Positions 10,465-29,901 of a stretch of 44,758 bases of DNA are shown here, piece by piece; position 1 is the stretch's first letter, and each line of letters begins with the position of its first letter. The DNA is from a candidate division NC10 bacterium SPGG6 (GTDB lineage: Bacteria > Methylomirabilota > Methylomirabilia > Methylomirabilales > CSP1-5): positions 1 through 44,758 of the forward strand of contig LXTG01000068.1 of NCBI GenBank assembly GCA_001643535.1, read 5' to 3'. A model generated the notes under the pieces. That model was not told the DNA's origin, searched no databases, and saw only the letters and a program-made list of their open reading frames with translations. The translations under genes were made by a program, and so were the position numbers.

Positions 10465-10893
10465 GTGATGCCGTATCGGTTCCTCGAAGATGTCGCCATC
10501 GCCGATGTGGCCTTCGAAGCGGAGGGACGAACGCTCCCCGAGGTCTTCGAGGCGTCGGCGCTAGCCCTCACCGAGGTGATGGTGGATTTGGACGGGCTCT
10601 CCCCCGTCCTGTCACGCGAGATCACCCTCACCGCCGAAGATCTCGAGACCTTACTCTTCCGCTGGCTCGCAGAACTCATTTATCTTAAAGATTCGGCATG
10701 TCTCCTCTTCTGCCGATTCCAGATCGCCATCCGGGAAGGGACCGAGTGGGAGCTTCAGGCAACTGTGTGGGGGGAGGGAATTGATTACGGCAAGTTGCCG
10801 CTCAAGTTGGACGTCAAGGCCGTGACGTATCACCTGTTCGTAATCGAGCAAATCCCTGCCGGATGGAGGGCCCGGGTCGTCCTGGATATCTAA
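10465..10893 (+). CDS. archease
   Basis: The N-terminus MPYRFLEDVAIADVAFEAEG and the C-terminus VKAVTYH...VVLDI are typical of archease. It lies directly upstream of rtcB, its usual partner. Confidence 0.85.
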   Translation: MMPYRFLEDVAIADVAFEAEGRTLPEVFEASALALTEVMVDLDGLSPVLSREITLTAEDLETLLFRWLAELIYLKDSACLLFCRFQIAIREGTEWELQATVWGEGIDYGKLPLKLDVKAVTYHLFVIEQIPAGWRARVVLDI

Positions 10894-10914
10894 GGGGGTA
10901 AGAAGGGGGTAAGG

Positions 10915-12363
10915 ATGATGGAAGCGAAAAAGATCGCTGAGGGCATCTGGGAGGTTCCCCGCACCGCCAAGGAGGGTATGCTGGTCCCTGCCCGGATCTA
11001 CGCGACGGACAAACTCTTCAAGGAGATGGATCAGGGGGTCTTCGAGCAGGTAACCAACGTGGCTTGCCTGCCCGGGATCCAGAAGTACGCCATCTGCATG
11101 CCCGATGGCCACTGGGGCTATGGGTTCCCCATCGGGGGGGTGGCCGCCATGGATACAAAAACTGGGGTCATCTCGCCGGGCGGAATCGGCTTTGACATCA
11201 ACTGTGGGATGCGGCTTATCCGGACCAACCTCATCGAGGCCGAGGTCAAGCCCAAGCTCCGAGATCTCATAGATCGTTTGTTCCATGCGGTTCCGTGCGG
11301 GGTCGGCACCAAGGGATTCCTGAAACTGAAAGAAGATGAATTTCGAGAGATCATGGTCCAGGGGGCGCAGGGCATTATCCGGCGTGGGTATGGCTGGCCA
11401 GAGGATGCAGAGCGGATGGAGGACGCCGGCCGGATCCCCGGAGCCGATCCGGCCAAGGTCAGCCCGAAGGCCACGAGCCGCGGGATCCATCAGCTCGGAA
11501 CGTTAGGATCCGGCAACCATTATCTCGAGATCCAGGTGGTCTATCCGGGTAATGTCTACGATGCAGATGCCGCCAAGGCAATGGGCATCGATCGCGACTT
11601 TCAGGTGGTGGTGATGTTCCACTGCGGCTCCCGGGGCTTCGGCCATCAGGTCGGAACCGACTATCTCGACCTCTTTGGGCCAGCCATGAAACGGTACGGC
11701 ATTACCATCCGCGATCGAGAACTGGCCTGCGCACCCTTTGCCTCTCCCGAGGGTCAGGACTACTTCAAGGCGATGGTGTGTGCGGCCAATTCGGCCTTTG
11801 CCAATCGCCAGATGGTCACCCACCGCATTCGAGAGGTCTTCAGCGACGTGTTCAAGCGGGACGCTCGCGATCTGGGCCTCGATATAGTCTACGACGTGAC
11901 CCACAACATCGCCAAGATCGAACGGTATCAGGTGAATGGCGAAGAGAAGGAGCTGCTCGTCCATCGCAAGGGAGCAACCCGTTCTTTTCCCCCAGGACAC
12001 CCAGAGCTGGCGGAGCGGTATCGTGCTACGGGCCAGCCGGTCATCATCGGCGGCTCTATGGAGACCGGCTCTTACCTCCTCATCGGAACGGCCAAGGCCA
12101 TGGAAGAAAGCTTTGGGTCCACCTGCCACGGCTCGGGCCGGACCATGTCTCGCACGGCCGCGAAGAAGAAGGTTCATGGCCGAGACCTGCTACAACGAAT
12201 GGAACAAAAAGGGATCTACGTGAGGGCCGCCTCCTTTGCGGGGGTTGCCGAGGAGGCGGGAATGGCCTATAAGGATATCTCTGATGTCGTGGAGGCCGTG
12301 GAGACACTGGGGATCTCGAAGAAAGTGGTGCGTTTGCAGCCGATTGGCAATATCAAGGGATAA
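10915..12363 (+). CDS. rtcB: RNA 3'-phosphate/5'-OH ligase RtcB
   Basis: GGIGFDINCGMRL, GSGNHYLEIQ, HCGSRGFGHQV, HRKGATR and CHGSGR motifs. Confidence 0.95.
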   Translation: MMEAKKIAEGIWEVPRTAKEGMLVPARIYATDKLFKEMDQGVFEQVTNVACLPGIQKYAICMPDGHWGYGFPIGGVAAMDTKTGVISPGGIGFDINCGMRLIRTNLIEAEVKPKLRDLIDRLFHAVPCGVGTKGFLKLKEDEFREIMVQGAQGIIRRGYGWPEDAERMEDAGRIPGADPAKVSPKATSRGIHQLGTLGSGNHYLEIQVVYPGNVYDADAAKAMGIDRDFQVVVMFHCGSRGFGHQVGTDYLDLFGPAMKRYGITIRDRELACAPFASPEGQDYFKAMVCAANSAFANRQMVTHRIREVFSDVFKRDARDLGLDIVYDVTHNIAKIERYQVNGEEKELLVHRKGATRSFPPGHPELAERYRATGQPVIIGGSMETGSYLLIGTAKAMEESFGSTCHGSGRTMSRTAAKKKVHGRDLLQRMEQKGIYVRAASFAGVAEEAGMAYKDISDVVEAVETLGISKKVVRLQPIGNIKG

Positions 12364-12379
12364 GGGCAGCGAGGCATCG

Positions 12380-12727
12380 GTGGAGAGCAAAGAGCTGTTG
12401 TACACCTCGTACCGGCTGCAGGAGCTGGAGCGCCTCCTCCCCGAAGGGCTCTCCATGGCTGAGCTTCAGCAGGTAGAGGCTTTTGTCGAGCAGCGGGACG
12501 ATGTGGGATTGATCGCCTTCTTGGAACAGCGAAACCTCTCCCCCGAGAGCCGAGGTCGGCTCCGGATTATCACAGAGGCGCGGCCTATCGCCCTCACGAT
12601 CATCGCCCTCTGGCGGGAGATGCCGCTCCGCCACGAGGAGATCGAGGCGCAATACAAAAAGCTCCAGCACCTCAAGGCTCAGTATAATCGCATCGCCCCC
12701 CGACGGGCGGGCGTCGAACTCTTCTAA
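12380..12727 (+). CDS. hypothetical protein downstream of rtcB
   Basis: In-frame GTG at 12380 (GAGG 5 nt upstream), 16 nt after the rtcB stop. The helical 115-aa product starts VESKELLYTSYRLQELERLL... The ORF-track start at 12236 lies inside rtcB. Confidence 0.45.
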   Translation: MESKELLYTSYRLQELERLLPEGLSMAELQQVEAFVEQRDDVGLIAFLEQRNLSPESRGRLRIITEARPIALTIIALWREMPLRHEEIEAQYKKLQHLKAQYNRIAPRRAGVELF

Positions 12728-13919: not shown

Positions 13920-13945
13920 AACACAGATAATGAGGAGGTGATGCC

Positions 13946-14161
13946 ATGGCACCCGAAGTCGTAATCTATGGCAAAGACGGGTGACCCTTTACCTCGGCGG
14001 CCCGGGAGGACTGCGCCCAGCGAAACGTCTCTGTTCGCTATATCGATGTGAAGAAAGATAAGAAAACCCTGGAGGAGATGCTTAAATTCTCCAAGGGCGT
14101 TCGGGACGTTCCGGTCATCGTCGAAGATGGCAAGGTCACCATCGGCTTCGGCGGAACTTGA
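13946..14161 (+). CDS. small glutaredoxin-like (YruB/NrdH-type) protein with an in-frame TGA at the active-site position (candidate selenoprotein, otherwise a pseudogene)
   Basis: ATG 13946 has GAGGAGG 7 nt upstream. The reading is MAPEVVIYGKDG-[TGA 13982-13984]-PFTSAAREDCAQRNVSVRYIDVKKDKKTLEEMLKFSKGVRDVPVIVEDGKVTIGFGGT-stop. Thioredoxin-fold elements continue after the TGA. Confidence 0.55.
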
Positions 14162-14273
14162 GAGGTTTGAGGCCAGGGTCCTGGCCGTTGCTTTCAGGCC
14201 GTCGCCCCACGTTGGGTGCGACGGCCTTTTCCTTCGCCACCCGAAGCTCTGTGGCGCCAGCCTTCAAACCGTG

Positions 14274-14726
14274 ATGGACCTTAATCAGATCGACGGATAT
14301 CTTTTTCAAGGCTCGGCCCCCCTCGGTCCGCGCGATACCGACCGGCTCCTGTCCTTAGGGGTCAGGGCAGCGGTGGACATGCGGGCCGAGGCCCAGCCCA
14401 CTCTTCCCCTGGATAGTACCCTCTGGCTCCCCACGACAGACGGAGAAGCCGCCACGGTAGAGCAGCTCACCACGGGCATCCGCTTTATTGAGCACTGCCT
14501 GAGCCTTGGATGGGGCGTGTACGTTTACTGTCAGGGAGGGATCGGCCGCTCCACCATGATGGTTGCAGCCTATCTGGTAGGCAAGCGTGGGATGGATGTT
14601 GACGAGGCGATCGAGGGCATCCAGAGATGCCGGCCCGGCGCCAGTCCATCTCGCCTGCAAGCGCAGACAGCCGAAACGGCTGGCCTCGCCTTCCGTGCAG
14701 CGGCCCAAGGGTCCCTCTCCACGTGA
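14274..14726 (+). CDS. dual-specificity (Cys-based) protein phosphatase
   Basis: The signature VYVYCQGGIGRSTMMVAAYLV is the HCX5R(S/T)-type P-loop. Start at MDLNQIDGY (14274). The ORF-track start at 14127 overlaps the glutaredoxin-like ORF out of frame. Confidence 0.75.
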   Translation: MDLNQIDGYLFQGSAPLGPRDTDRLLSLGVRAAVDMRAEAQPTLPLDSTLWLPTTDGEAATVEQLTTGIRFIEHCLSLGWGVYVYCQGGIGRSTMMVAAYLVGKRGMDVDEAIEGIQRCRPGASPSRLQAQTAETAGLAFRAAAQGSLST

Positions 14727-14795: not shown

Positions 14796-15185
14796 CTACT
14801 CCTCTTCCCCAGGCCAACCCTTGATCCCGTACAGGCCGGCTTTGAGCACCTTCAGGGCCAGCAGTCCGCACTTCAGTCGAATCGGGCTGAGCGGGATCCC
14901 CAGGGCCTCGAGCATCTCTTCCTTGCTGAAGGCCCTGACCCGCTCCAGGGGGGCTCCCTTGACCTTATCAGTCAGGATCGACGCTGCCGCCGTACTGATG
15001 GCACAACCCCGCCCATCGAAGCGGACGTCGACCACGCGGCCCTCGCCGAGCTTGAGATCAATCCGGATCCGGTCACCGCAGAAAGGGTTATCTTCCTCGT
15101 TGGTGATATCCGGGTCCTCCAGCGTCCCGAAGTTGCGCGGTCTCTTGTAATGATCCAGGATGAATTCGCGATGAAAATCGTCCAT
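14796..15185 (-). CDS. SufU/IscU-like Fe-S scaffold protein, second paralogue
   Basis: ILDHYKRPRNFG..NPFCGDRIRIDL..GRGCAISTAAASILT..IRLKCGLLALKVL carries the three Cys of the SufU family (TIGR01994-like). Confidence 0.85.
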   Translation of the reverse strand: MDDFHREFILDHYKRPRNFGTLEDPDITNEEDNPFCGDRIRIDLKLGEGRVVDVRFDGRGCAISTAAASILTDKVKGAPLERVRAFSKEEMLEALGIPLSPIRLKCGLLALKVLKAGLYGIKGWPGEEE

Positions 15186-15253
15186 GTCCCTAGGCCTTAC
15201 CGATCTTCCAACCTCTCAGCCTGCCACGAGCGTCTCCAGCTCCTCGGCAGCGC

Positions 15254-15277
15254 CATATATGATATATGATATATGAT
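15254..15277. repeat. tandem heptanucleotide (ATATATG)x3 + ATA
   Basis: Read directly at 15254-15277 in the 416-nt spacer upstream of the second sufU paralogue. Confidence 0.9.
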
Positions 15278-15601
15278 AGAGGAAGAGGCTGGCACGGTCT
15301 ACTACTCGTACCACCAGCCTGTAACCCCCTCCCGGCTTTGCAGACTTTCCCCCCTTGCAAGAAAAAGACCGTGTATTCGTTGGAGTCTGCGCGGCTTTCC
15401 ACCCTTGCATCGATGTAGGCGTCAGGCTCGAGCGAACCGCGTGGAAGCAACCGGAAGAGCAGGCCTTCGAGCAGACGTCAAGGGTCACGCCGACCTATGA
15501 TTCGGTCATTTTCTCTGCTACCGTGGAACTTAGGAAAGGAATCGTCCCCAGGAAGTGTCACTGTTGGCGGGTCCCTTCGACGTAGGGGCGCCCCTCACGT
15601 C

Positions 15602-15847
15602 TCAGGGGACGAGCTGCTTGCCGCTTTCGTCGATGACGATCAAGGCATCCACCGGACAGACAGTACACGCGTCGATCAGCCGCTCCCGGTCAATGCTCGG
15701 GGGACTCTGCGTAAAGGCGCAGATATTCTCGCCGTCAAATTCGAAGATTTCCGGCCCCACTTTCATGCAGTTGGAAGTGCTGATACAGAGCGTACGATCG
15801 ATGCGAATCGTCAGGCCGCTGATTTTTCGTTCGACGAAATCGCCGAT
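15602..15847 (-). CDS. small single-cluster ferredoxin ([3Fe-4S]-type CX5C...CP pattern), no canonical start codon
   Basis: Not in the ORF track. Reverse-strand frame: ..IGDFVERKISGLTIRIDRTLCISTSNCMKVGPEIFEFDGENICAFTQSPPSIDRERLIDACTVCPVDALIVIDESGKQLVP-stop (TGA at 15604-15602). Between the upstream in-frame TAG and the first Cys there is no ATG, GTG or TTG. GGAGGA precedes an ATC at 15847-15845. Confidence 0.55.
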   Translation of the reverse strand: MGDFVERKISGLTIRIDRTLCISTSNCMKVGPEIFEFDGENICAFTQSPPSIDRERLIDACTVCPVDALIVIDESGKQLVP

Positions 15848-15887
15848 GGCTGTTCCTCCGTGTCCCTGGTGCCCAGAACTTCCCCAC

Positions 15888-16214
15888 TCACAACAGGCCT
15901 AGTTCGAGTTTCGCCGCTTCGGACATCTTGGAGGGATCCCACGGGGGATCGAAGACGACCTCGACTTTGGCATCTGTGACCGCCGGAACCGCCTTCGCCT
16001 TTTCCTGCACCTCCCCGGGCAGCGTCCCTGCCGCTGGACAGTTGGGGGAGGTGAGGGTCATTCGGATGTCGACGGCGCCCGACGGATCTACCTTGACCTC
16101 GTAGATCAGTCCGAGTTCGTAGATGTTCACCGGGATCTCCGGATCAAAGACCATGCGCAGGGCCTCGATGACCTGGGCCTCGATCACCAGTGAATTGGCG
16201 GACGTGATGTCCAT
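15888..16214 (-). CDS. DUF59 (SufT/PaaD-like) Fe-S assembly protein
   Basis: 108 aa with VFDPEIPVNIYELGLIY and MTLTSPNCP motifs. Confidence 0.85.
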   Translation of the reverse strand: MDITSANSLVIEAQVIEALRMVFDPEIPVNIYELGLIYEVKVDPSGAVDIRMTLTSPNCPAAGTLPGEVQEKAKAVPAVTDAKVEVVFDPPWDPSKMSEAAKLELGLL

Positions 16215-16268
16215 ACGACCTCCTCCGAATCGGTATGGCGCGTCCCCCGCGCCGTGTCCCTCAACATC

Positions 16269-16721
16269 CTACTCCGTCGAAACGGTCTCCTCCTTCCTCT
16301 CAAGCGCAGCACGCAACGTGTGCCACGCCAGCGTGGCGCACTTGACCCGAATGGGGAATTCACTCACGCCGGAAAAGACGGCAAGTTTCCCGAGGTCACC
16401 AGGATCGTCTGTCCTGTCTTCCTCTCCGGTAACCAAGGCGTGAAATTTCTGAAAAAGGACCTCCGCTTCGGCCTTGGTCTTTCCCTTCACGCTGTCGGTC
16501 ATCATCGAGGCCGAGGCCTTAGAAATCGCGCAGCCCGACCCTTGAAAACCGATGTTCCGAATCGCGTTATCCTCCAACTGGAGGTAGACGGTCACATCGT
16601 CGCCGCAAAGCGGGTTGTAACCTTCCGCCGTCCGGTTTGCGCCCTCCAGTTTCTGAAAGTTGCGTGGTTTCTTGCTGTGGTCGAGGATAACCTGCTGGTA
16701 GAGTTCGCGAAGGTCAGACAT
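16269..16721 (-). CDS. sufU: SufU-type Fe-S scaffold / sulfur acceptor
   Basis: ILDHSKKPRNF..NPLCGDDVTVYL..GSGCAISKASASMMT..IRVKCATLAWHTL. Its start overlaps the sufS stop (TAATG). Confidence 0.9.
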   Translation of the reverse strand: MSDLRELYQQVILDHSKKPRNFQKLEGANRTAEGYNPLCGDDVTVYLQLEDNAIRNIGFQGSGCAISKASASMMTDSVKGKTKAEAEVLFQKFHALVTGEEDRTDDPGDLGKLAVFSGVSEFPIRVKCATLAWHTLRAALERKEETVSTE

Positions 16722-17992
16722 TAGCCGAACATTTCGATGGCCTTGTAGAGCGCCCCAACAAGCACATCGATTTCTTCCCTCGTGTTATAGAAGGCTAAAG
16801 ACACCCGAGCGGTGGCTGGCACTCCAAAGCGCCGCATCAACGGCATGGTACAGTGGTGGCCCGCCCGAATCGCAACCCCTTCGCGGTCGAGTATGGTGCC
16901 GACGTCATGCGCGTGCACCCCATCCAGCACAAAGGATATGAGGCTCGCCTTCTCCCGGGCCGTTCCAATGATTCGGATACCTGGGATAGCCGAGAGGGCC
17001 TCGGTCGCATACTCCAGTAATTCGTGCTCATACGGACCTACCCTCTCCAGACCAATTCCGTTCAGATAGTCGATCGCTGCACCCAGGCCGATGACGCCAG
17101 CGATGTGCGGCGTGCCGGCCTCGAACTTGTATGGGAGGTCGTTGTACACCGTCTTCTCGAACGTGACCGATTTGATCATATCGCCCCCGCCTTGGTACGG
17201 CGGCATCGATTCGAGCATTTCGGCTTTGCCGTAGAGGACACCGATACCGGTAGGACCGAACACCTTGTGCCCCGAGAAGGCGAAAAAATCGCAATCCAGT
17301 TCGCGCACGTCCACCTTCAGGTGGGCCGTTGCCTGTGCGCCATCCACGACCACCGGGACCCCCTGCCGATGTGCAAGGCGGATGAGCTGGCGCACGGGGT
17401 TGATCGTCCCCAATGCGTTCGATACATAGACCACTGAGACCAACCGAGTCCGAGGGGTGAGGAGTTTTTCGTACTCGTCCAGCAGTAACTCCCCGGCGTC
17501 ATTGATCGGCACCACGCGCAGCGATGCTCCGGTCTGTTCGCACAGAATCTGCCAGGGGACGATGTTGGAGTGGTGCTCCATTGCGGAGATGAGGATCTCG
17601 TCGCCAGCCCGGATCTGTTGCCGGCCGTAACTGAAAGCCACCAGGTTGATGGCCTCTGTGGTGCCGCGAACGAAGATGACTTCCCGTGATTCCGCGGCGT
17701 TGATGAAGCGTTGCACCTTTTTGCGGCTTTGCTCGTAGGCCTCGGTGGCGCGTTCGCTCAGCCCATGCACACCGCGGTGAATGTTGGAGTTGTACGTTGA
17801 AAGATACTCATGCACCGTATCGATGACAACTTGCGGCTTTTGGCTCGTGGCGGCGTTGTCGAAGTAGACCAGCGACTTCCCGTGGACTTTCCCACCCAGA
17901 ATCGGGAAATCCTGTCTCACCTCGTTCACGTCGAAACCGGCCGCCCGGTCCTCGTGGACCTTTGCAGTCACTGAACGACCGGGGGTGCTCAT
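16721..17992 (-). CDS. sufS: cysteine desulfurase SufS (class V aminotransferase, group II)
   Basis: [34 protein letters not shown] (the PLP lysine) and [10 protein letters not shown] (the active-site Cys). ATGA overlap with sufD. Confidence 0.95.
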
Positions 17993-19332
17993 CGGACTTC
18001 CTCCAACAGCTTCCCCTCAGGCAACCATTGCGCCACGAGTGCCTGAAGGTGTTTCCGGATCGATTCGACCTTCATGCGCTCCAGGCTCTCGTTGGCAAAG
18101 CCAAAGAGCAACAGGGCACGCGCCGCATCCTTGACAATGCCGCGGGAGCACAGGTAGAAGATCGCGTCCTCGTCAATCTGGCCGATGGTCGCGCCGTGGG
18201 TACATTTGACATCGTCGGCATAGATCTCCAGCTGCGGCTTGGTGTCGATCTGTGCCTCCTGCGAAAGCAGCAGGTTATTATTGGTCTGTTTTGCGTCGGT
18301 CTTCTGGGCATCCTTGTGGACGATGATCCGGCCGCTGAAGATGCCATGCGACTGCTCGTCGAGGATACCCTGGTAGAATTGCCGGCTGTCACAGTGCGGA
18401 CTAGCGTGTTCGACCAACATAAAGTTGTCCATGTGCTGCCGGCCGGTTCCCATGAACAGGCCATTGATCAGGCAGGTGCCCCCCTCGCCGGCTAGCACCG
18501 GGTGCACATTGTTCCGCACCAACGCGCCACCGAGCAGCACCGTGTGGGACGCGACACTACTGCTGCGGCCCTGCTCCACCCGGAGGGTCGAAACATTGAA
18601 CGCCTGCTTACTCTCTTGCTCAATCAGATAGTGGCTCAGCACACTGTTCTGGCCGACCACCGCTTCTGTGACCACGTTCGAGAAATAGACGTCGGCGTCT
18701 AGCGAAACATAGTCTTCGACAATGACCGCCTGGCTGTCTTCATCCAGAACGATCAAGTTGCGCGGATGGGTCACGATCGGGGCGTCGGTTGCCGTCGACA
18801 CGTACAGCAGACGGATGGGCTCCTCAACAACCCGCCCCCGAGGGACATGTATGAACGCGCCGTCTTCCATGAAGGCGGTATTTAGGGCGGAGAACGCGTC
18901 CTGGTGATACCCAGCGTACCTGGTCAGGTGCTGCTCCAGCACATCGCGGTCATCCCTGAAGGCCTGGGCAAGGCTGCGCACTGAGAGCCCATCGCTAGGT
19001 GAAGCAGGTGATGAAAGCGTGGGTGCATACCGGCCGTTCACGAAGACGAGCTGAATATCTCGCGGCCCCGGAAACGTGAGTTGCTCTATGTCTCGGGGCG
19101 CCAGTTCGATATGAGCGTCCCCCGCGAGTTGGAAGGAGATCTGGGCGATCGGTGCCACGTTCGTAAACCGCCAGTCTTCATCGCGGGTAGTAGGGAATCC
19201 CAACTCGGCGAAGCGGGCGATGGCCGCTCGGCGGACCGGGCGCAGCCACTCCTGCCCATTGCCGGCAGTGGCCTTCTCGAACCGAGCGAAGCTCTCCAGG
19301 TAATGGTCCCGCTCTTGTGTCACGGCAATCAC
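17989..19332 (-). CDS. sufD: Fe-S cluster assembly protein SufD
   Basis: 447 aa lying between sufC and sufS, with a SufB/D beta-helix C-terminus (..[30 protein letters not shown]..). Confidence 0.9.
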
Positions 19333-19344
19333 CGGCTCCCTCGA

Positions 19345-20109
19345 CTATGCCTGCGCAGCAGCCCTGGCCTCTTCTTCGACCCAGGCGTAGCCCTTCTCCT
19401 CGAGCTCCAATGCCAGCTCTTTCCCGCCCGACTTGACGATCCGGCCGTCCAATAAGACGTGGACGTAGTCGGGGACGACGTAGTTGAGCAGTCGCTGATA
19501 GTGGGTGATAACGACGATGGCACGCTCCGGGGTGCGCAGCGCGTTCACCCCGTTGGCGACGATTTTCAGGGCATCGATGTCCAGGCCAGAGTCCGTTTCG
19601 TCCATAATGCAGAGCCTGGGCTCGAGCAGCGCCATCTGGAAGATCTCGTTGCGTTTTTTCTCGCCGCCCGAGAATCCCTCATTGACCGACCGGTGGAGCA
19701 GCTTCTCATCCACCCCCAGAGACTTGATCTTCTGCTTGACCAGGGTGAGGAACTCCATGGCGTCAAGTTCCTCGAGGCCCCGGCGCTTGCGGATGGCGTT
19801 GAGCGCGGCCTTGAGGAACTGGGCGCTCCCGACACCCGGGATCTCAACGGGATACTGGAAGGCCATGAAGACCCCCTCGCAGGCGCGCTCCTCCGGTGCC
19901 ATCTCGAGCAGGTTCTTTCCGTCGTACAGGACTTCTCCTTCAGTGACCCTGTACGTCTCGCGACCGGCCAGGACTTGCGCCAGCGTGCTCTTCCCCGAGC
20001 CGTTGGGGCCCATAATGGAGTGAACCTCGCCGACGTTGACCTTCAGGTCAACGCCTTTGAGGATCTCGTGGTTGCCCGCTTGCACATGCAGGTTTTTGAT
20101 TTCGAGCAT
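19345..20109 (-). CDS. sufC: Fe-S cluster assembly ATPase SufC
   Basis: Walker A GPNGSGKST, signature FSGGEKKRNEI, and Walker B LCIMDETDSGLD. Confidence 0.95.
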   Translation of the reverse strand: MLEIKNLHVQAGNHEILKGVDLKVNVGEVHSIMGPNGSGKSTLAQVLAGRETYRVTEGEVLYDGKNLLEMAPEERACEGVFMAFQYPVEIPGVGSAQFLKAALNAIRKRRGLEELDAMEFLTLVKQKIKSLGVDEKLLHRSVNEGFSGGEKKRNEIFQMALLEPRLCIMDETDSGLDIDALKIVANGVNALRTPERAIVVITHYQRLLNYVVPDYVHVLLDGRIVKSGGKELALELEEKGYAWVEEEARAAAQA

Positions 20110-20142
20110 GGTCCGTCCTTTTTGAAGAGTCGTTCACGTCTC

Positions 20143-21582
<1,440 letters not shown>

Positions 21583-21869
21583 GGTAACTCCCTTTCAAGG
21601 CTGTTACGAACTATCCGTCTCCGAGCCACATATGGCTCGTTCCTCCACTCTGGCCGCCCTTCACTCTCGCGACTGTCCCTTCCCACTGTGCTCGCCCCCT
21701 CGCACTGGGACCGACCACCCCGGGCGGCCACCCGTAGCGCGCCCACTGTCATGGGGACCACATCCGTCCGGAGACACCCTCCTCCTTCACACAAAGCTGA
21801 ACCACACTATCCATGCGGAGATCGGGCAGGGAGGGGGACCGGGGATGCGGCTTGATCACTATGAGTGTA

Positions 21870-21899
21870 AGTATACTATAGAGCATTTGTACCTGTCAA
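21870..21899 (-). promoter_or_regulatory. sigma-70-type promoter TTGACA-N18-TATACT, about 280 nt upstream of sufB
   Basis: On the minus strand, TTGACA is the reverse complement of 21894-21899 and TATACT is the reverse complement of 21870-21875, with an 18-nt spacer. Confidence 0.5.
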
Positions 21900-22028
21900 C
21901 GCATTCGGCCGCATGGTCGCGGATTTGGGGCCTTTGTGGACCCGGTAAGGGACCGCTAAGGCCTCTGTGGATGCCCAAGCGTGCCATCCCGCGAAGGCGA
22001 ATTTCTCCACTGCACCCTCGCCTTGCTC

Positions 22029-22355
22029 CTAGGCCTGAAATGACTGTCCGCAGCCGCAGGAGCCTTTGGAATTGGGATTCTTGATGGCGAATCCCGTCCC
22101 GGTCAGCCCATCCTGAAAGTCGATCTCCGTGCCGGCGAGGAAGAGCAGGCTCTTGGGATCGACCACGACCTTGACCCCGCCCTCCTCGAAGACTTGGTCC
22201 CCCTCCTTGGGGGTATCAAAGGCCAACTGGTACTCGTACCCGGAGCATCCGCCCCCCCTCACCCGGACGCGCAGCCCCTGGCCCTCGACCCCATCCTTGG
22301 CCATCAGGTCTTTCAACTTCGCCGCTGCTGCCTCAGTAACTTTTACCACCTGCAT
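22029..22355 (-). CDS. A-type Fe-S carrier (HesB/IscA/ErpA family)
   Basis: LRVRVRGGGCSGYEYQLAFD and the C-terminal SCGCGQSF. Confidence 0.9.
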   Translation of the reverse strand: MQVVKVTEAAAAKLKDLMAKDGVEGQGLRVRVRGGGCSGYEYQLAFDTPKEGDQVFEEGGVKVVVDPKSLLFLAGTEIDFQDGLTGTGFAIKNPNSKGSCGCGQSFQA

Positions 22356-22376
22356 CCCTCCTGCTTGAGATCAAGA

Positions 22377-23422
22377 TTACTCTGTCAATGTCTCCACGCT
22401 GATCCGCCCGGCCACATTGGCAGCCACCTGGCGGAAGATAGCCGCCACGGGGGAGTCGGGTCGCTCGACCAGGATCGGCTGCCCCACGTCCCCCCCCCCC
22501 GGCGGAGCTCGGGATCCAGCGGGATCTCCCCCAAAAAGGGGACCTCCAGCCGCTGACTCGCCTTGCGGCCCCCGCCGTGGCCAAAGAGCTCCACCGAGTG
22601 CTCGCAGTGGGGGCAGAGGAAATAACTCATGTTCTCGATGATCCCCAGGATCGGCACCTTCAGCGTCTGCAACATGTTCAGCGCCTTGGTCGCAATCTGA
22701 ATCGCCACCTCCTGCGGCGTCATCACGATCACCGCCCCCGACAGCGGAATCGCCTGCGCCAGCGTCAGCGACGCATCCCCCGTCCCCGGCGGCAGATCCG
22801 CCAATAGATAGTCCAGCTCCCCCCACTCCACCTCCATCAACATCTGCTTCACCGCCTGCGCCACCATCGGGCCCCGCCATACCACCGGGGCCGTGTGATC
22901 CGGCAGCAGAAAACCCAGCGACATCAGCTTTACCCCGTGCCTCTCCGGCGGGATCATCCGCTTCCCCACCACGTCCGGCTGGCGATGGACCCCCATCATC
23001 ATCGGAATGCTGGGCCCGTAAATGTCTGCATCCAAAAGCCCGACCGCGGCCCCCGCCTCCGCCAACGCCACCGCCAGATTCACCGTCACCGTCGACTTGC
23101 CGACCCCCCCCTTGCCACTGCCGATGGCAACAATGTGCTTGACCCCTGGAATCGGCTGGAGGCCCGACGGCGGCTTGCGTACACTGGCCGTCAGCGTCAC
23201 CGTCACCTCCCCCACCCCCGGTAGGGCCTGCACCGCCGCCTGCGTCTCGGCCTCTACCTGCGCCCGCATCGGACAGGCCGGAGTCGTCAGTTCCACGGTG
23301 ACCGCTACGGCCCCCCCCGCGACCTTGATCTCCTTCACCATCCCCAGTGACACCAGGTCCCGGTGTAGTTCCGGGTCATTCACTTTCCGGAGAGCGTCCA
23401 GGACCTTCTCTTCGCTGACCAT
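22377..23422 (-). CDS. apbC: Mrp/ApbC/NBP35-family Fe-S carrier ATPase, 3' end interrupted by a frameshift in a homopolymer
   Basis: N-terminal DUF59 domain, the deviant Walker A GSGKGGVGKST, and CPHCEHSVELFGHGGG. After ..EIPLDPELRRGGG the conserved C-terminus (DVGQPILVERPDSPVAAIFRQVAANVAGRI) continues in another frame (ORF 22377-22880). The switch occurs at the 11-nt C/G run at 22490-22500. Confidence 0.85.
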
Positions 23423-24502: not shown

Positions 24503-26347
24503 TCATCCAGTCGAATCTTGGTCTCCACGCGTATCCCCCTTCCGGCTCTGTGGGTTCTTATACGTTATTTTCATCAATTGAGCCGTCCTTGGGTTCTCTT
24601 TCAGGTGCTTGACGATCAGCTCCGTGCCGGTCCTATGATGGAAATATCCCATCCCTTCTCCCGGCAACCTGTTTTTTGTATAGAATTCGAAGAGCACATC
24701 GGTCACCGTGGCTACCTGTTCCCGGGGGACGCTCCGTACATACATTTCACCCGTCTCTCGATCGATCAGCGGCTCCCCCTGATGTCGCCCATCCTCGGTT
24801 CCGCCCAATTTGAGCTGGTACCGGTTGAGACCCATCCCAACCCAGCCAATGGTCTTTGTTGCGGGACGAAAACATTGCCGTTCACACCCTGTGACTCCAA
24901 TGGACTCGGCCATCTCCCCCCATTTCTGCTCTAATTCGTCAATCAGATACGGTTCGAATTTCTCCGCATCGGTATACGTCAGCTGGCAGGTGTCCCTTCC
25001 GACGCAGGCGCCAGACAGCAGCCGGAGCCGCGTGTAGGGCCGTCCGTGTCGCGTGCCGTACCCGAAACTTTTTAGGTAGGTTTCAAATTCCGACTTGGCG
25101 TCTGGCGGGATATTCGTGAACAAGATATCCTGATTCGGAGTCGTCATCAGCTCAACGGGGTATTTCTGCATCACGTATCGGACCATTGCTTTCAGTCTGC
25201 CATTCGGGCCGTCGATGATCCGTCCGTTCTCAATGAAGGCCCCGTAGCAGAGTTGCTCGTCGGATGGCTGCATGATCCACCCGTGATGCAGATGCCTGTT
25301 CCCGTAATCATGATCCGAGTCGGGCATTGCAAGATCGCATGCGCTGACCCGGCGAACTTGCTCTCGGAACCAGTCCATGCCCTGCTTTCTCAGGACATAT
25401 TTCATTCGAGCCCAGTGTCGGTTCTGACGGTCACCCCACTCCTGATGTACCTGCACGATCCCATCTAGGACTTTTAATAATTCACTTTCTCTCACGATGC
25501 CAAAGGGTTCTCCCAATGCAGAAAAAGTGGGTTTCCCGTTCCTTTCCCCTTGGCTGCCCCCGATATACACCTGGAATTGCGTGACCCTGCCATCTTCCAC
25601 AATCGGCGCAACTCCGATGTCATTAGTACGCAGTTCCACACAATTATCCGGAACATACGTCCCCTTTTCCCCATCGAAGTGCATCGCCGAGAAGCCGATC
25701 TTGAATTTTCGGTTCAACAAATTGGGACCGTATTGGAATCGCTCCTCCGGATCCCGTAAATAGTTCGGGTCTACGGCGAAAATTTCAATGAACGCTGCGG
25801 TGGGAAGCCTGAAGTATTTCCCTACTTTCTGGGCCCAGGCATTGGCATCATAGATTTTTGAGAAGCAGGAAAGGGGGCACCCCATGACATTTCTGACATT
25901 ATCTCCACATCCATTCAGACTATAAAATCCGGACTCGGCGACCCCCCGCACCACCTCAACAACATGTTCCTTTTTCACCCAATGGAATTGGATGTTTTGC
26001 CTGGTGGTAATTCGTAAGGACGCACTGCCCTCATGGCTCACCGTGAACCGCTCGGACAACTCGTCGAAGACCATCCATTGTTCTCGCGTGATGGGGCCTC
26101 CGCCAGGAATACTGATCCGAATCATGTACATCCAGTCTTTTTCCTTGCCTGTCTTGGCTCGGTTCCATTCAAGGTAAACTCCGTGAGATTTCGCGAGTTG
26201 TTCAGACTCCCACGCAAGATCGGCCAGAGAGGTATCGCGGAAATCCTGATACAGACTTCCGCGGATCCAGTTTGACGCCAGCTTCGTACGGTCGTGCCTG
26301 GAAAGCTCTTCAAGGGGTGTTTTTAGATTTGGATTGATCTCTTCCAT
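24503..26347 (-). CDS. sulfite/nitrite reductase hemoprotein (siroheme-[4Fe-4S]), assimilatory ferredoxin-sulfite-reductase-like
   Basis: 614 aa with two NIR_SIR half-domains. LRITTRQNIQFHW, CGDNVRNVMGCPL, and the cluster/siroheme cysteines SGACVGRDTCQL ... VTGCERQCFRP (CX5C...CX3C). Confidence 0.85.
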   Translation of the reverse strand: MEEINPNLKTPLEELSRHDRTKLASNWIRGSLYQDFRDTSLADLAWESEQLAKSHGVYLEWNRAKTGKEKDWMYMIRISIPGGGPITREQWMVFDELSERFTVSHEGSASLRITTRQNIQFHWVKKEHVVEVVRGVAESGFYSLNGCGDNVRNVMGCPLSCFSKIYDANAWAQKVGKYFRLPTAAFIEIFAVDPNYLRDPEERFQYGPNLLNRKFKIGFSAMHFDGEKGTYVPDNCVELRTNDIGVAPIVEDGRVTQFQVYIGGSQGERNGKPTFSALGEPFGIVRESELLKVLDGIVQVHQEWGDRQNRHWARMKYVLRKQGMDWFREQVRRVSACDLAMPDSDHDYGNRHLHHGWIMQPSDEQLCYGAFIENGRIIDGPNGRLKAMVRYVMQKYPVELMTTPNQDILFTNIPPDAKSEFETYLKSFGYGTRHGRPYTRLRLLSGACVGRDTCQLTYTDAEKFEPYLIDELEQKWGEMAESIGVTGCERQCFRPATKTIGWVGMGLNRYQLKLGGTEDGRHQGEPLIDRETGEMYVRSVPREQVATVTDVLFEFYTKNRLPGEGMGYFHHRTGTELIVKHLKENPRTAQLMKITYKNPQSRKGDTRGDQDSTG

Positions 26348-27543: not shown

Positions 27544-28596
27544 TCACCCCATTGGCGAAAGGACTAATACGAGCAGCCCGGTGATCCCTAGATTCACAAA
27601 GGCCAGGGGCAGCAGGACCTTCCAAGCCACGTGCATCAGTTGATCTACGCGCACCCTGGCCAGCGTCCATCGAAGCCATATCATCACAAAGAGGAGGAAA
27701 TAGGTCTTGAGCAGGAACCAGACCCAGGGAGCCAACAGTGGACCCTGCCACCCCCCGAGAAAAACGGTGGTGGCAATGGCGCAGACGACAAACATATTCG
27801 CGTACTCCGCCAGGAAAAAGATGGCGAATCGCATCCCACTATACTCGACATGAAACCCGGACACGAGTTCCGACTCCGCCTCCGGGATATCGAAGGGGAG
27901 CCGGTTGGTCTCCGCCACGGCACAGGTGAAGTAGATGAGAAAAGCCAGGGGTTGCACCACGATTAACCATCCAGGGAGGATGCCAAGCCAGGTTCCCCCC
28001 TGATACTCCACGATGTCCGTCATCCTGAGAGAGCCCACTAGGAGGAGAGGACCCAGCAGGGAAATCACCAGGGGCACCTCGTAGCTCACTGCCTGCGCCG
28101 CGGACCGGAGCGCGCCCAACGCAGCGTACTTGTTGTTGGAGCCCCAGCCGGCCATGATGATTCCCACCACCGTGAGAGAAGAGATAGCAATGATGTACAG
28201 AATACCGATGTTGAGATCCTGCACGATGAGGCCGGGACCGAATGGAATTACCACATAGGTGGCCAACGATGCGGCGAAGACCACGATCGGGGCCAGGATA
28301 AAGACCGGCCTGTCGGCCCGGGTCGGGATGATGTCCTCCTTGAGCAGGAGCTTGAGCCCGTCGGCGATACTCTGGGCCCACCCGTGCCAGCCCCCGACCC
28401 GCATCGGACCGAACCGAGCCTGGATGTGGGCGCTGATCTTTCGCTCCCACCAGATCAGGAACATGGCCGACACCGAGATAAAACCGATGATGATGCTCAC
28501 CACCCCGAGCATGATGGCGAGGCGCGGAACGATCCACGGAATGCCCCACGCCTCAAAAAGGGCGTAAAATTGTTCGAGGGCTCCAGCGCTCACCAC
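27544..28596 (-). CDS. nuoH: NADH-quinone oxidoreductase subunit H
   Basis: 350-aa polytopic membrane protein with WWERKISAHIQARFGP, YAALGALRSAAQAVSYEV and ETNRLPFDIPEAESELVSGFHVEYSG. Confidence 0.95.
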   Translation of the reverse strand: MVSAGALEQFYALFEAWGIPWIVPRLAIMLGVVSIIIGFISVSAMFLIWWERKISAHIQARFGPMRVGGWHGWAQSIADGLKLLLKEDIIPTRADRPVFILAPIVVFAASLATYVVIPFGPGLIVQDLNIGILYIIAISSLTVVGIIMAGWGSNNKYAALGALRSAAQAVSYEVPLVISLLGPLLLVGSLRMTDIVEYQGGTWLGILPGWLIVVQPLAFLIYFTCAVAETNRLPFDIPEAESELVSGFHVEYSGMRFAIFFLAEYANMFVVCAIATTVFLGGWQGPLLAPWVWFLLKTYFLLFVMIWLRWTLARVRVDQLMHVAWKVLLPLAFVNLGITGLLVLVLSPMG

Positions 28597-28627
28597 CTAC
28601 ACCCTTCTTGCACCAGCAGTCGGCTAT

Positions 28628-28718
28628 TCGGATTTCGAATTGCGAATTTCGAATATGGGATTGGGGACTAAACACTTCCGTAGAAAATCCGAAATCCGCA
28701 TTCCCAAATTCGAAATGT
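28628..28718. repeat. heptamer-built imperfect inverted repeat in the nuoD|nuoH spacer
   Basis: Arm 1 (28628-28669): tcggatt tcgaatt gcgaatt tcgaata tgggatt ggggact. Arm 2 (28684-28718): aaaatcc gaaatcc gcattcc caaattc gaaatgt. 28645-28666 can pair with 28696-28717 at 18 of 22 positions. Confidence 0.85.
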
Positions 28719-28746
28719 TTGCAAGCTGACCGCTGGCAGCTATGGA

Positions 28747-29889
28747 TTAGCGGTCCACCTCGCACAGCACGATATCCACGCTCCCCAAGATCGCAACCGC
28801 ATCGGCCACCATATAGCCGGGGAGCATCACCGGCAGGGCGGAGAGATTGACAAAGGTCGGTGCGCGGACCTTGTAGCGATACGGCCGCTCGGACCCGTCC
28901 GCGACGATGTAGTGCCCCAACTCCCCCCGCGGGCTCTCCACCCGCGAATAGATGTCCCCCACCGGCGCCCGCAGCTTCTTCGCCACCGGGGCCAGGACCG
29001 GCCCCGGGGGAATCGCCTTCAAACCCTGCTCCACGATCTTGACCGATTGCTCCATCTCCTGGCGGCGCACCCAGAAGCGGTCCCACACATCCCCGTTCGG
29101 CCCCACCGGGATGTCAAACTCAAACCGGTCGTAGATCCCGTACGGGTCGTCCCGCCGCAGATCCCACCGGATCCCCGAGCCCCGGAGCATGGGCCCGGAG
29201 CAGGCGTAGCTGATGGCATCCTCGGGCTTGAGAATCCCCACCCCCTGGATCCGTTTCTGCCAGATGATGTTGTCGGTGCTGAGGCGGTCGTACTCGGACA
29301 GCCGCGGCGTGAACCACGCTAAAAACGCCTTCACATCCGCCAGCCACCCCTCCGGGACATCCAGGGCCAGCCCCCCAATCCGCATGAAGCTGTAATTGAT
29401 CCGTTGCCCCGAGACCGCCTCGAACAGGTCCAGGATCATCTCCCGCTCCCGAAAACACCACATGAAGAGGGTGAAGTTGCCGAGGTCGAGGCCAAAGGTC
29501 CCCAGCCAGATCAGATGCGAGGCGATCCGCTGTAGTTCCCCGATGATGACTCGGAGATACTCCGCCCGCGCCGGGATGCTGATCTCCATCAGCCGCTCGC
29601 AGGCGAGGCAGTAAGCCCAGTTGTTGTACATCGAGGCCAGGTAGTCGAGCCGGTCGGTGTACGGGATGATCTGGACGTAGGCGCGGTTCTCCCCGATCTT
29701 CTCGTGGCAGCGATGCATGTAGCCCAGGTAGGGGATGCATTCGCGCACCACTTCCCCGTCCAGCTTCAACAGCAGGCGTAATACCCCGTGGGTCGATGGG
29801 TGCTGTGGCCCCATGTTGACCCACATCTCCTCCATCGATTCGGTGGTCCGTTCTTTGACCTGCTGAAGGTGAAGGTTGATTGTCGTCAT
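28747..29889 (-). CDS. nuoD: NADH-quinone oxidoreductase subunit D
   Basis: 380 aa with NMGPQHPSTHGVLRL, GYMHRCHEK and the C-terminus DIVLCEVDR. Confidence 0.95.
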   Translation of the reverse strand: MTTINLHLQQVKERTTESMEEMWVNMGPQHPSTHGVLRLLLKLDGEVVRECIPYLGYMHRCHEKIGENRAYVQIIPYTDRLDYLASMYNNWAYCLACERLMEISIPARAEYLRVIIGELQRIASHLIWLGTFGLDLGNFTLFMWCFREREMILDLFEAVSGQRINYSFMRIGGLALDVPEGWLADVKAFLAWFTPRLSEYDRLSTDNIIWQKRIQGVGILKPEDAISYACSGPMLRGSGIRWDLRRDDPYGIYDRFEFDIPVGPNGDVWDRFWVRRQEMEQSVKIVEQGLKAIPPGPVLAPVAKKLRAPVGDIYSRVESPRGELGHYIVADGSERPYRYKVRAPTFVNLSALPVMLPGYMVADAVAILGSVDIVLCEVDR

Positions 29890-29901
29890 GCCGCCTGCTT
29901 C

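What the first reader, a model, noticed from the sequence alone, without database searches (positions are those of the whole stretch)
13946..14161. Glutaredoxin-like ORF with an in-frame TGA exactly where the active-site Cys should be: candidate selenoprotein missed by the ORF track
Reading from ATG 13946 (GAGGAGG 7 nt upstream) gives MAPEVVIYGKDG-TGA-PFTSAAREDCAQRNVSVRYIDVKKDKKTLEEMLKFSKGVRDVPVIVEDGKVTIGFGGT-stop. Apart from the TGA at 13982-13984, this is a full-length small glutaredoxin/NrdH-type thioredoxin fold. It has a beta1 strand VVIYG followed directly by the redox motif, and later the VPVIV.DG..I.GF element. The TGA replaces the first Cys of the usual CPxC motif, giving U-P-F-T. That is the classic location of selenocysteine in thioredoxin-fold selenoproteins. 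The frame stays open for 58 more codons with the expected fold elements, which argues against a genuine stop. A GC-rich stem-loop can be drawn 8-25 nt after the TGA (CCUC GG [CGGC] CC (GG) GAGG), roughly where a bacterial SECIS sits, but I cannot score it by eye. The neighbours are an MDR oxidoreductase upstream and a Cys-based dual-specificity phosphatase 110 nt downstream, which would fit a small redox module. That link is inference only.
Basis: partly seen in the sequence, partly recalled or inferred. Interest (0 to 1): 0.78.

Follow-up and report, generated by a model that had tools for sequence, protein, structure and literature searches.

The report
Known two-selenocysteine glutaredoxin-like protein

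Summary
ATG 13946 has a GAGGAGG Shine-Dalgarno 7 nt upstream, TGA 13982-84 is in frame, and a glutaredoxin domain spans both sides of it.

The gene continues GAG-GTT to the true stop at 14168-70, so the product ends ...GFGGT-U-E-V.

With both TGAs read through, the protein scores 121.7 bits (cutoff 72) on NCBIfam NF041114, UXX-star selenoprotein family 1. A 2026 review lists this family with motif UxxT and 2 Sec per protein.

Both TGAs are identical in four independent assemblies of this organism, a Methylomirabilales-like MAG. They are also conserved in eight diverged relatives, with a clear coding signature upstream of the first TGA. Among 69 species-representative genomes, 32 carry TGA at both sites and all 69 carry the C-terminal TGA.

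The second UGA is followed by a 3'-UTR hairpin in 74 of 77 loci, against 15% after ordinary TGA stops. The first is followed by a U-form-specific CC-GKGA-GG element (33/37 U-forms, 2/38 Cys-forms).

The proposed link to the neighbouring genes is only local synteny. Function is uncharacterised. An intramolecular Se-Se redox pair is my inference.

The parts
13932..13938 (+). Shine-Dalgarno GAGGAGG, 7 nt before the start codon
   Evidence: Read directly. A purine-rich GGAGG/GGGGG core is kept at this position in eight relatives while 37 of the 40 upstream nt vary.
13946..14170 (+). Complete coding sequence: 74 codons plus stop, MAPEVVIYGKDG-U-PFTS...TIGFGGT-U-E-V-stop. Member of UXX-star selenoprotein family 1.
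   Evidence: NCBIfam NF041114 121.7 bits (cutoff 72), aligned 1-70/70. Pfam PF00462. Same architecture in eight diverged relatives and 69 species-representative genomes.
13982..13984 (+). First in-frame TGA: Sec-13, at the position of the nucleophilic Cys of the glutaredoxin CPYC motif (U-P-F-T here)
   Evidence: Aligns to the first Cys of CPHC/CPYC in PDB glutaredoxins. TGA in 32 of 69 representative genomes, TGC/TGT in 37. In codons 2-12 upstream, variable sites fall 2/11, 2/11 and 11/11 at codon positions 1, 2 and 3 (p=7e-6).
13983..14029 (+). Candidate SECIS 1, inside the coding sequence. Extended stem-loop with inner helix 13996-13999/14014-14017, apical helix C14002-C14003/G14008-G14009 and loop GGGA at 14004-14007 (19 nt after the UGA).
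   Evidence: RNAalifold on the close clade gives two compensatory pairs. It is also the window's own MFE fold, -10.9 kcal/mol. Paired in 70.6% of cells in 36 U-forms (0/500 shuffles) against 39.6% in 38 Cys-forms. Motif CC-GKGA-GG in 33/37 U-forms against 2/38 Cys-forms. Weak points: the energy z-score is +1.5 and there is no family-wide alifold consensus.
14159..14161 (+). Second in-frame TGA: Sec-72, the family-defining 'UXX-star' selenocysteine.
   Evidence: TGA directly after GFGG[TS] in every one of 69 parsable representative genomes, followed by x-Val-stop. The NF041114 model end aligns only with read-through.
14168..14170 (+). True stop codon (TGA here; TAA or TAG in relatives)
   Evidence: The stop identity varies among relatives (TGA, TAA, TAG) while the TGA two codons upstream never varies.
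14171..14186 (+). SECIS 2: 3'-UTR hairpin GGCCAG-GGUC-CUGGCC abutting the stop codon. 6 bp stem, tetraloop starting 15 nt after the UGA.
   Evidence: -11.5 kcal/mol. Invariant in the close clade. A qualifying hairpin with G in the first two loop positions, 13-23 nt after the UGA, occurs in 74/77 family loci with 66 distinct sequences; only 3 have a T tract; the background after ordinary TGA stops is 50/336, p=6e-44.
14196..14230 (+). Likely intrinsic terminator of the gene: 14-bp GC-rich stem followed by UUUU. Separate from SECIS 2.
   Evidence: -27.3 kcal/mol, z = -6.15, 0/200 shuffles fold as well. A corresponding second hairpin is present in the close relatives.

Best explanation
The locus encodes a 74-residue selenoprotein of the known UXX-star selenoprotein family 1 (NCBIfam NF041114, also called 'distant Grx-like protein 1').

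Shown:
- It has a minimal glutaredoxin fold (b1-a1-b2-a2-b3-b4) with no C-terminal helix. A flexible Gly-rich tail takes the helix's place.
- It contains two UGA codons. UGA-13 replaces the nucleophilic active-site Cys (U-P-F-T). UGA-72 lies three codons before the stop (GGT-U-E-V-stop).
- Each UGA has a downstream stem-loop that fits the bacterial SECIS model. The first is inside the coding sequence, with a GKGA loop 19 nt downstream. The second is in the 3' UTR, directly after the true stop, with a GGUC loop 15 nt downstream.

Inferred:
- SelB with Sec-tRNA(Sec) reads both codons as selenocysteine.
- The classical resolving Cys at +3 is an invariant Thr, and the only other invariant chalcogen residue is Sec-72 on the flexible tail. 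I therefore think Sec-72 acts as the resolving partner of residue 13. That would give a reversible intramolecular Se-Se bond here, and an S-Se bond in the Cys-13 relatives, working as a small low-potential redox shuttle. My probability for this mechanism is about 0.45.

The physiological substrate is unknown.
For: Family membership: NF041114 121.7 bits against cutoff 72, full-length model match only with the tail read through. PF00462 across the first TGA. A 2026 review lists NF041114 with motif UxxT and 2 Sec per protein.

Real, not an error: both TGAs and all 315 nt are identical in four independent assemblies.

Translated through UGA-13: eight diverged relatives keep both TGAs. In codons 2-12, variable sites are 2/11, 2/11 and 11/11 at codon positions 1, 2 and 3 (p=7e-6).

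Family-wide: the C-terminal TGA is present in 69 of 69 representative genomes, and both TGAs in 32 of 69.

SECIS 2: 74/77 loci against 50/336 background, 66 distinct stem sequences.

SECIS 1: the CC-GKGA-GG motif occurs in 33/37 U-forms against 2/38 Cys-forms, built from synonymous codon choices. The association rests on about 10 U/C switches. Pairing is 70.6% in U-forms against 39.6% in Cys-forms. Third-position variation is depressed in the zone, 8/16 against 36/42.

No global reassignment: TGA ends 25 of 55 putative genes in the window.

Clade uses Sec: Methylomirabilota includes a MAG with 63 predicted selenoproteins and Sec-type hydrogenases.

Fold and tail: AlphaFold model of a Cys-form homologue has pLDDT 87.8 with a low-confidence last block (47). 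Best PDB matches are glutaredoxins, NrdH and BC3987 at TM 0.8-0.84. C/U-13 aligns to the first Cys of CPYC.
Against: Sec machinery (selA, selB, selC, selD) was not found in the window and could not be searched for in the rest of the genome.

Thermodynamics alone does not mark either SECIS. The z-score is +1.5 for SECIS 1 and -1.35 for SECIS 2, and U-forms do not fold better than Cys-forms after codon 13.

There is no family-wide RNAalifold consensus for SECIS 1, and no Rfam SECIS hit.

The Se-Se mechanism is pure inference. No model including the tail could be built. No conserved partner gene points to a substrate. The review instead suggests the Sec residues may be metal ligands.
Confidence: 0.88

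Rival explanations
1. Same gene and same recoding, but the two selenols act as a soft-metal or metalloid chelating pair (Hg, As, Cu or similar) instead of cycling through a diselenide. The protein would be a metal-binding or trafficking factor.
For: [quoted passage not shown] A weak sub-threshold NCBIfam hit to the copper chaperone CsoZ exists, 18 bits against cutoff 77. The window gene lies next to a large Fe-S assembly (SUF) cluster.
Against: No metal-resistance or transport gene is recurrently adjacent across about 80 loci. The fold and the position of residue 13 are those of a redox-active glutaredoxin. The SUF adjacency is clade-local synteny.
Confidence: 0.3
2. One or both UGAs are decoded as cysteine, not selenocysteine, by a SECIS- and SelB-dependent tRNA(ReC) (selC*). 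The mature protein would then be the ordinary Cys form.
For: The hydrogenase paper reports selC*-type tRNAs in genomes from the same phyla that carry double-UGA motifs, and cites experimental UGA-to-Cys recoding by such tRNAs. My data show SECIS-dependent recoding, not which amino acid is inserted.
Against: The family is curated as a selenoprotein family. Cys codons are freely available and are used at site 13 in about half of the members. A UGA maintained with a dedicated SECIS in 69 of 69 genomes at site 72 is hard to explain if Cys were the product.
Confidence: 0.07
3. The first TGA is a true stop. The functional product is the 55-residue protein called by gene predictors (start at the codon after PFT), or the gene is a decaying pseudogene.
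For: Automatic callers in several databases report exactly this 55-aa product.
Against: That product would lack strand b1 and the active site. The 12 codons upstream of the TGA show a strict third-position substitution pattern and keep a Shine-Dalgarno and an ATG in eight diverged relatives. TGA at this site recurs in 32 species from several phyla. A U-form-specific SECIS motif follows it.
Confidence: 0.02
4. The TGA is a sequencing or assembly error for TGC/TGT.
Against: There are 0 mismatches over 315 nt, with both TGAs present, in four independently assembled records (two ENA metagenomes, NCBI GCA_022563785.1 and a further ENA assembly). Many other species have the same codon.
Confidence: 0.01

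Closest known systems
UXX-star selenoprotein family 1 (NCBIfam NF041114; 'distant Grx-like protein 1' in Zhang et al. 2026, PMC13188914 Table 1)
   Same: Scores well above the curated cutoff. Same length, the same [C/U]-P-[YF]-T N-terminal motif, the same ...TIGFGGT-U-x-V-stop tail and a 3'-UTR SECIS. The review lists the motif UxxT and 2 Sec per protein, which is the architecture found here.
   Different: Nothing of substance. The window protein has F instead of Y in the motif and E instead of the commoner G in the tail, as do its Methylomirabilota relatives.
UXX-star families 2 and 3, and the HUGP/GUXX-star fusion selenoprotein (NF041211, NF047338, NF045501; Haft & Tolstoy 2025, cited in the review)
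   Same: Same superfamily (NF041212 100.7 bits, cutoff 66), and a C-terminal Sec three residues from the end.
   Different: Scores are below their cutoffs: 58 against 100, 63 against 97 and 63 against 325. It is therefore family 1, not one of these.
Classical dithiol glutaredoxins and NrdH-redoxins (E. coli Grx3 3grx/1fov, Clostridium cGrx1 7c10, A. fulgidus Grx 3ic4, NrdH 1h75)
   Same: Same fold, TM 0.8-0.83 with rmsd 1.3-1.8 A. Residue 13 aligns to the nucleophilic Cys, and the cis-Pro VP motif before b3 is kept.
   Different: The resolving Cys at +3 is an invariant Thr. The C-terminal helix is absent and replaced by a Gly-rich Sec-bearing tail. Scores are far below the Grx and NrdH equivalog cutoffs, for example TIGR02194 at 25 against 86.
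Mammalian thioredoxin reductase C-terminal Gly-Cys-Sec-Gly tail (from my own knowledge, not tested here)
   Same: A redox-active Sec on a flexible C-terminal extension a few residues from the stop, with the SECIS necessarily in the 3' UTR.
   Different: Unrelated fold and a eukaryotic SECIS. In TrxR the partner is the adjacent Cys, whereas here the presumed partner is residue 13 of a Grx active site.
SelL, a eukaryotic thioredoxin-fold selenoprotein with a UxxU diselenide (from my own knowledge, not tested here)
   Same: Two Sec in one thioredoxin-fold redox centre, with a possible natural diselenide.
   Different: In SelL the two Sec are three residues apart in one motif and share one SECIS. 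Here they are 59 residues apart and each has its own SECIS.

Membership tests
[quoted passage not shown] | Score above the curated whole-protein cutoff of the family HMM | tested here: met
   121.7 bits against cutoff 72, model positions 1-70 of 70. Still 113.6 bits without the tail.
[quoted passage not shown] | Selenocysteine codon three codons before the true stop (U-x-x-stop) | tested here: met
   TGA 14159-61, GAG, GTT, TGA 14168-70. The same holds in 69 of 69 representative genomes.
[quoted passage not shown] | N-terminal [C/U]-x-x-T motif on a glutaredoxin-like fold (the review lists UxxT, 2 Sec) | tested here: met
   U-P-F-T at residues 13-16. PF00462 44 bits. Confident Grx-fold model of a homologue.
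Bacterial selenoprotein (general) | SECIS after the C-terminal UGA that fits the bacterial model (loop 3-9 nt with G in its first two positions, stem of at least 4 bp, 16-37 nt spacing, MFE no higher than -7.5) | tested here: met
   6-bp stem, GGUC loop, -11.5 kcal/mol. Spacing is 15 nt, 1 nt short of the stated range, which the review says holds 'for most' elements. Family-wide 74/77 against 15% background.
Bacterial selenoprotein (general) | SECIS after the internal UGA | tested here: inconclusive
   For: a GKGA loop 19 nt downstream, a U-form-specific motif (33/37 against 2/38) and U-form-specific pairing, and MFE -10.9. Against: the apical helix is only 2 bp before an internal loop, there is no family-wide alifold consensus, the energy z-score is unremarkable, and an alternative register is equally paired.
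Bacterial selenoprotein (general) | Genome encodes selA, selB, selD and tRNA-Sec | not testable with these tools
   None found in the 44.7-kb window. The rest of MAG GCA_022563785.1 could not be searched. The phylum is documented as Sec-using.
Bacterial selenoprotein (general) | Selenium actually incorporated at the UGA positions | not testable with these tools
   Needs 75Se labelling or mass spectrometry. The tRNA(ReC) alternative (UGA decoded as Cys) is not excluded.
Classical dithiol glutaredoxin / NrdH | CxxC active site with a resolving Cys at +3, and family HMM above cutoff | tested here: not met
   Thr at +3 is invariant in the family. TIGR02181 scores 39 against 90, TIGR02194 25 against 86 and TIGR02196 43 against 89.

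The most novel reading that the evidence does not exclude
Sec-13 and Sec-72 form a reversible intramolecular diselenide, which would be a natural Se-Se redox centre in a bacterial glutaredoxin fold. In addition, the N-terminal site has toggled between Cys and Sec about ten times in the family, each time together with the same in-frame SECIS core (GCC-CGK-GAG-GA), which is reachable by a few synonymous changes plus one Asp-to-Glu change. As far as I could find, neither the bond nor this co-evolution has been described. The family is only catalogued, not characterised.
Probability: 0.4. Interest if true: 0.55.

Novelty: new member of a known kind. Interest (0 to 1): 0.3.

Why it matters
For annotation, the gene is mis-called in most public records. 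It appears as a 55-aa 'glutaredoxin', as no gene at all, or as a 71-aa product that stops at the second Sec codon. In the ENA records the neighbouring phosphatase is over-extended into it. The correct product is 74 residues with two Sec.

For biology, it adds a Methylomirabilales-like member to a selenoprotein family that is widespread (more than 511 loci in species-representative genomes) but has not been characterised biochemically. Within that family, Sec/Cys switching at one site is tightly coupled to a small recognisable SECIS core, which makes it a convenient natural system for studying how an in-frame SECIS arises. None of this changes the picture of what the family is.

Tried and rejected
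- Energy-based SECIS detection. Folding 13982-14045 and sub-windows gave unremarkable z-scores. MFE and strict-hairpin energy after codon 13 were no better in U-forms than in Cys-forms. Thermodynamics is uninformative here.
- Rfam at gathering and permissive thresholds gave no SECIS family, only chance hits with E of 2 or more.
- RNAalifold on all 36 U-forms gave no consensus. The lower stems are lineage-specific.
- tRNA-Sec and Sec machinery in the window: none.
- Other TGA-recoded genes in the window: a crude GC3-filtered scan found only spurious antisense ORFs or short extensions. The 54-aa versus 81-aa ferredoxin discrepancy is an ATC start, not a TGA.
- Functional linkage through neighbours. 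MDR and the phosphatase are clade-local. Unbiased clustering of flanking ORFs found no family-wide partner and was noisy because of high-GC spurious ORFs.
The distance between residues 13 and 72 could therefore not be assessed.
- Haft & Tolstoy 2025, the primary UXX-star paper, is not in the held library. The 2008 GOS paper that the review cites for this family does not name it recognisably in its main-text tables.
- An exact-sequence look-up of the full two-Sec product, with X in place of U, found nothing. This is not informative about how U is stored.

Full report
**Observation.** GAGGAGG lies at 13932-13938, 7 nt before ATG 13946. TGA 13982-13984 is in frame, and the frame stays open to TGA 14159-14161. 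With the first TGA read as Cys, Pfam Glutaredoxin (PF00462) aligns to residues 5-64, on both sides of the TGA, at 44 bits against a cutoff of 22.9. This is not a chance ORF.

A homologue search returned hundreds of 68-72-aa proteins that all end ...TIGFGGT. Some are named by NCBI 'UXX-star (seleno)protein family 1'. The closest hits (81-100% identity) were all 55-aa fragments starting just after the TGA. In the window, the supposed stop is followed by GAG GTT TGA. With U-E-V appended, the protein scores 121.7 bits on NCBIfam NF041114, 'UXX-star selenoprotein family 1' (cutoff 72), and aligns to model positions 1-70 of 70. The gene is therefore 13946-14170. It has 74 codons and two Sec codons, U13 in U-P-F-T and U72 in GGT-U-E-V-stop.

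**Is it real and translated?**
- DNA of the truncated relatives and of the nearest species-representative genomes shows both TGAs in frame in eight diverged sequences.
- In codons 2-12, upstream of the first TGA, variable sites fall 2/11, 2/11 and 11/11 at codon positions 1, 2 and 3 (Fisher p = 7e-6).
- The 40 nt before the ATG are 37/40 variable, apart from the Shine-Dalgarno core.
- The true stop varies (TGA, TAA, TAG), whereas the TGA two codons before it never does.
- The locus is present in four independent assemblies of the same organism: two ENA metagenomes, NCBI MAG GCA_022563785.1 and a further ENA assembly. There are 0 mismatches over 315 nt and both TGAs are present in all four. Assembly error and pseudogene decay are excluded.
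- TGA is also the commonest ordinary stop in the window, ending 25 of 55 putative genes. UGA is therefore not globally reassigned, and the two codons must be recoded locally.

**Family-wide picture.** A scan of one genome per GTDB species found more than 511 loci. The 80 best come from Methylomirabilota, Acidobacteriota (mostly Vicinamibacterales), Brocadiales/Planctomycetota, Thermodesulfobacteriota, Anaeromyxobacter and others. The nearest, at 85-86% identity, are Candidatus Methylomirabilales MAGs. Of 69 parsable loci, every one has TGA directly after GFGG[TS], followed by x-Val-stop. At the N-terminal site, 32 have TGA and 37 have TGC or TGT. These 80 loci were chosen for similarity to the query, so the proportion is not an unbiased estimate. 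The two-Sec form is common, not a peculiarity of this window. On a rough NJ tree, at least 10 U/C switches are needed.

**SECIS 2.** Directly after the true stop lies GGCCAG-GGUC-CUGGCC (14171-14186). It has a 6-bp stem, folds at -11.5 kcal/mol, and its loop starts 15 nt after the UGA. It is invariant in the close clade. Across the family, 74 of 77 loci have a perfect-stem hairpin of at least 5 bp, with a G in the first two loop positions, 13-23 nt after the UGA. These comprise 66 different sequences, and only 3 are followed by a T tract. After ordinary TGA stops of long coding-like ORFs in the same loci the rate is 50/336 (p = 6e-44). This matches the published bacterial SECIS model, except that the window's spacing is 1 nt below the stated 16-37 range. 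A separate and much stronger hairpin with a U tract (14196-14230; -27.3 kcal/mol, z = -6.15) is the likely terminator.

**SECIS 1.**
- Energy tests are uninformative. Rfam has no matching family. RNAalifold finds no consensus over all U-forms.
- The Cys-forms provide a control, and with it there is a clear signal. The element CC-GKGA-GG at +21..+28 is present in 33/37 U-forms and 2/38 Cys-forms (p = 2e-14, not corrected for phylogeny).
- That element is built from codon choices: Ala GCC in 36/37 U-forms against 10/38 Cys-forms, Arg CGK in 37/37 against 9/38, and GAG in 33/37 against 11/38.
- In the close clade, RNAalifold predicts an extended stem-loop running from the UGA to +48, with this element at its apex and two compensatory pairs. 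It is also the window's own MFE fold.
- Counted over all sequences, that structure is 70.6% paired in U-forms (0/500 shuffles reach this; slid controls give 23-41%). In Cys-forms it is 39.6% paired, which equals baseline. The apical helix is 94% paired in U-forms and 32% in Cys-forms.
- Third-position variation is lower in this zone, 8/16 against 36/42 (p = 0.013).
- I regard SECIS 1 as probable, with its exact helices unresolved.

**Fold and chemistry.**
- A profile of the family aligns residue 13 with the first Cys of CPHC/CPYC in solved glutaredoxins. Residue 16, where the resolving Cys would sit, is an invariant Thr.
- An AlphaFold model of a full-length Cys-form homologue is confident (pLDDT 87.8, pTM 0.75). 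It shows b1-a1-b2-a2-b3-b4 with no C-terminal helix and a low-confidence C-terminal end.
- Its best structural matches are A. fulgidus Grx, Clostridium cGrx1, NrdH, BC3987 and the E. coli Grx3-glutathione complex, at TM 0.8-0.84.
- A model including the U-x-V tail could not be run.
- My mechanistic proposal is that Sec-72, on the flexible tail, resolves Sec-13 (or Cys-13) through an intramolecular Se-Se (or S-Se) bond. It rests on the missing +3 Cys and the invariance of Sec-72. It is an inference (about 0.45).
- The review suggests metal binding as an alternative.
- UGA-to-Cys decoding by tRNA(ReC) cannot be excluded.

**Context.** The upstream MDR oxidoreductase and the downstream dual-specificity phosphatase are real. 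They accompany the gene only in the immediate clade, in 7 and 2 of about 84 loci. No neighbour is linked family-wide. No Sec machinery, tRNA-Sec or other recoded gene is present in the window. At phylum level, Methylomirabilota is documented as Sec-using, and it includes a MAG with 63 predicted selenoproteins.

[quoted passage not shown] The kind, including its two-Sec architecture, is therefore already catalogued. The present gene is a clear member that public records mostly mis-call. It appears as a 55-aa 'glutaredoxin' or as no gene at all, with the phosphatase ORF over-extended into it, in the ENA records. In the NCBI record it is a 71-residue product that reads through the first TGA but stops at the second.

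**Verdict.** Interest is low to moderate.

Noticed in passing
window 15602-15847, minus strand: A small ferredoxin gene is called as 54 aa from the first ATG. The frame is open upstream and contains a Cys motif (C-I-S-T-S-N-C) before that ATG. The NCBI record aa, which corresponds to an ATC start codon at 15847-15845 with a GGAGGA Shine-Dalgarno 6 nt upstream. This is an apparent non-canonical start, not a TGA read-through.
   Followed up: partly
window 14127-14726 (+): The dual-specificity phosphatase is called from ATG 14127 (199 aa) in the ENA records. That start overlaps the Sec gene's tail, SECIS 2 and the terminator. The NCBI record and a relative use ATG 14274 (150 aa). The long form is probably an artefact of not recognising the selenoprotein gene.
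   Followed up: partly
L092 11059-11274 (NCBI GCA_022563785.1); also GenBank HUE86706.1 and MGE5815196.1: Public records that recognise the family still end the protein at ...GFGGT, without the U-x-V tail. The NCBI record of this organism has a 71-residue product that reads through the first TGA but stops at the second.
   Followed up: partly
window 10465-12727 (+): An archease gene (10465-10893), an RtcB RNA ligase gene (10915-12363) and a conserved 115-aa protein with no family match (12380-12727) form a syntenic block upstream, kept in the Methylomirabilales relatives.
   Followed up: no
window 14796-23422, minus strand: A large Fe-S assembly cluster: two NifU/SufU-like genes, SufT/DUF59, SufS, SufD, SufC, SufB, a HesB/IscA-like gene (22029-22355) and an ApbC/Mrp carrier with an N-terminal DUF59 domain. 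A sulfite reductase hemoprotein (24503-26347) and Nuo subunits (27544-30408) follow.
   Followed up: no
family loci L010-L089, codons +6 to +8 after the C/U site: Cys-forms mostly encode A-R-D-D here (GCG CGC GAC), while U-forms encode A-R-E-D (GCC CGK GAG). Gaining Sec at site 13 therefore goes together with an Asp-to-Glu change that completes the SECIS apical helix. At least about 10 U/C switches are inferred on a rough tree.
   Followed up: partly
window 14012-14014 (Cys-23 codon TGC): The window protein has an extra Cys at residue 23 (REDCAQ). Most relatives have Tyr there, and only L009 and L010 in the close clade share the Cys. It is not conserved, so it is probably not part of the redox centre.
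   Followed up: no
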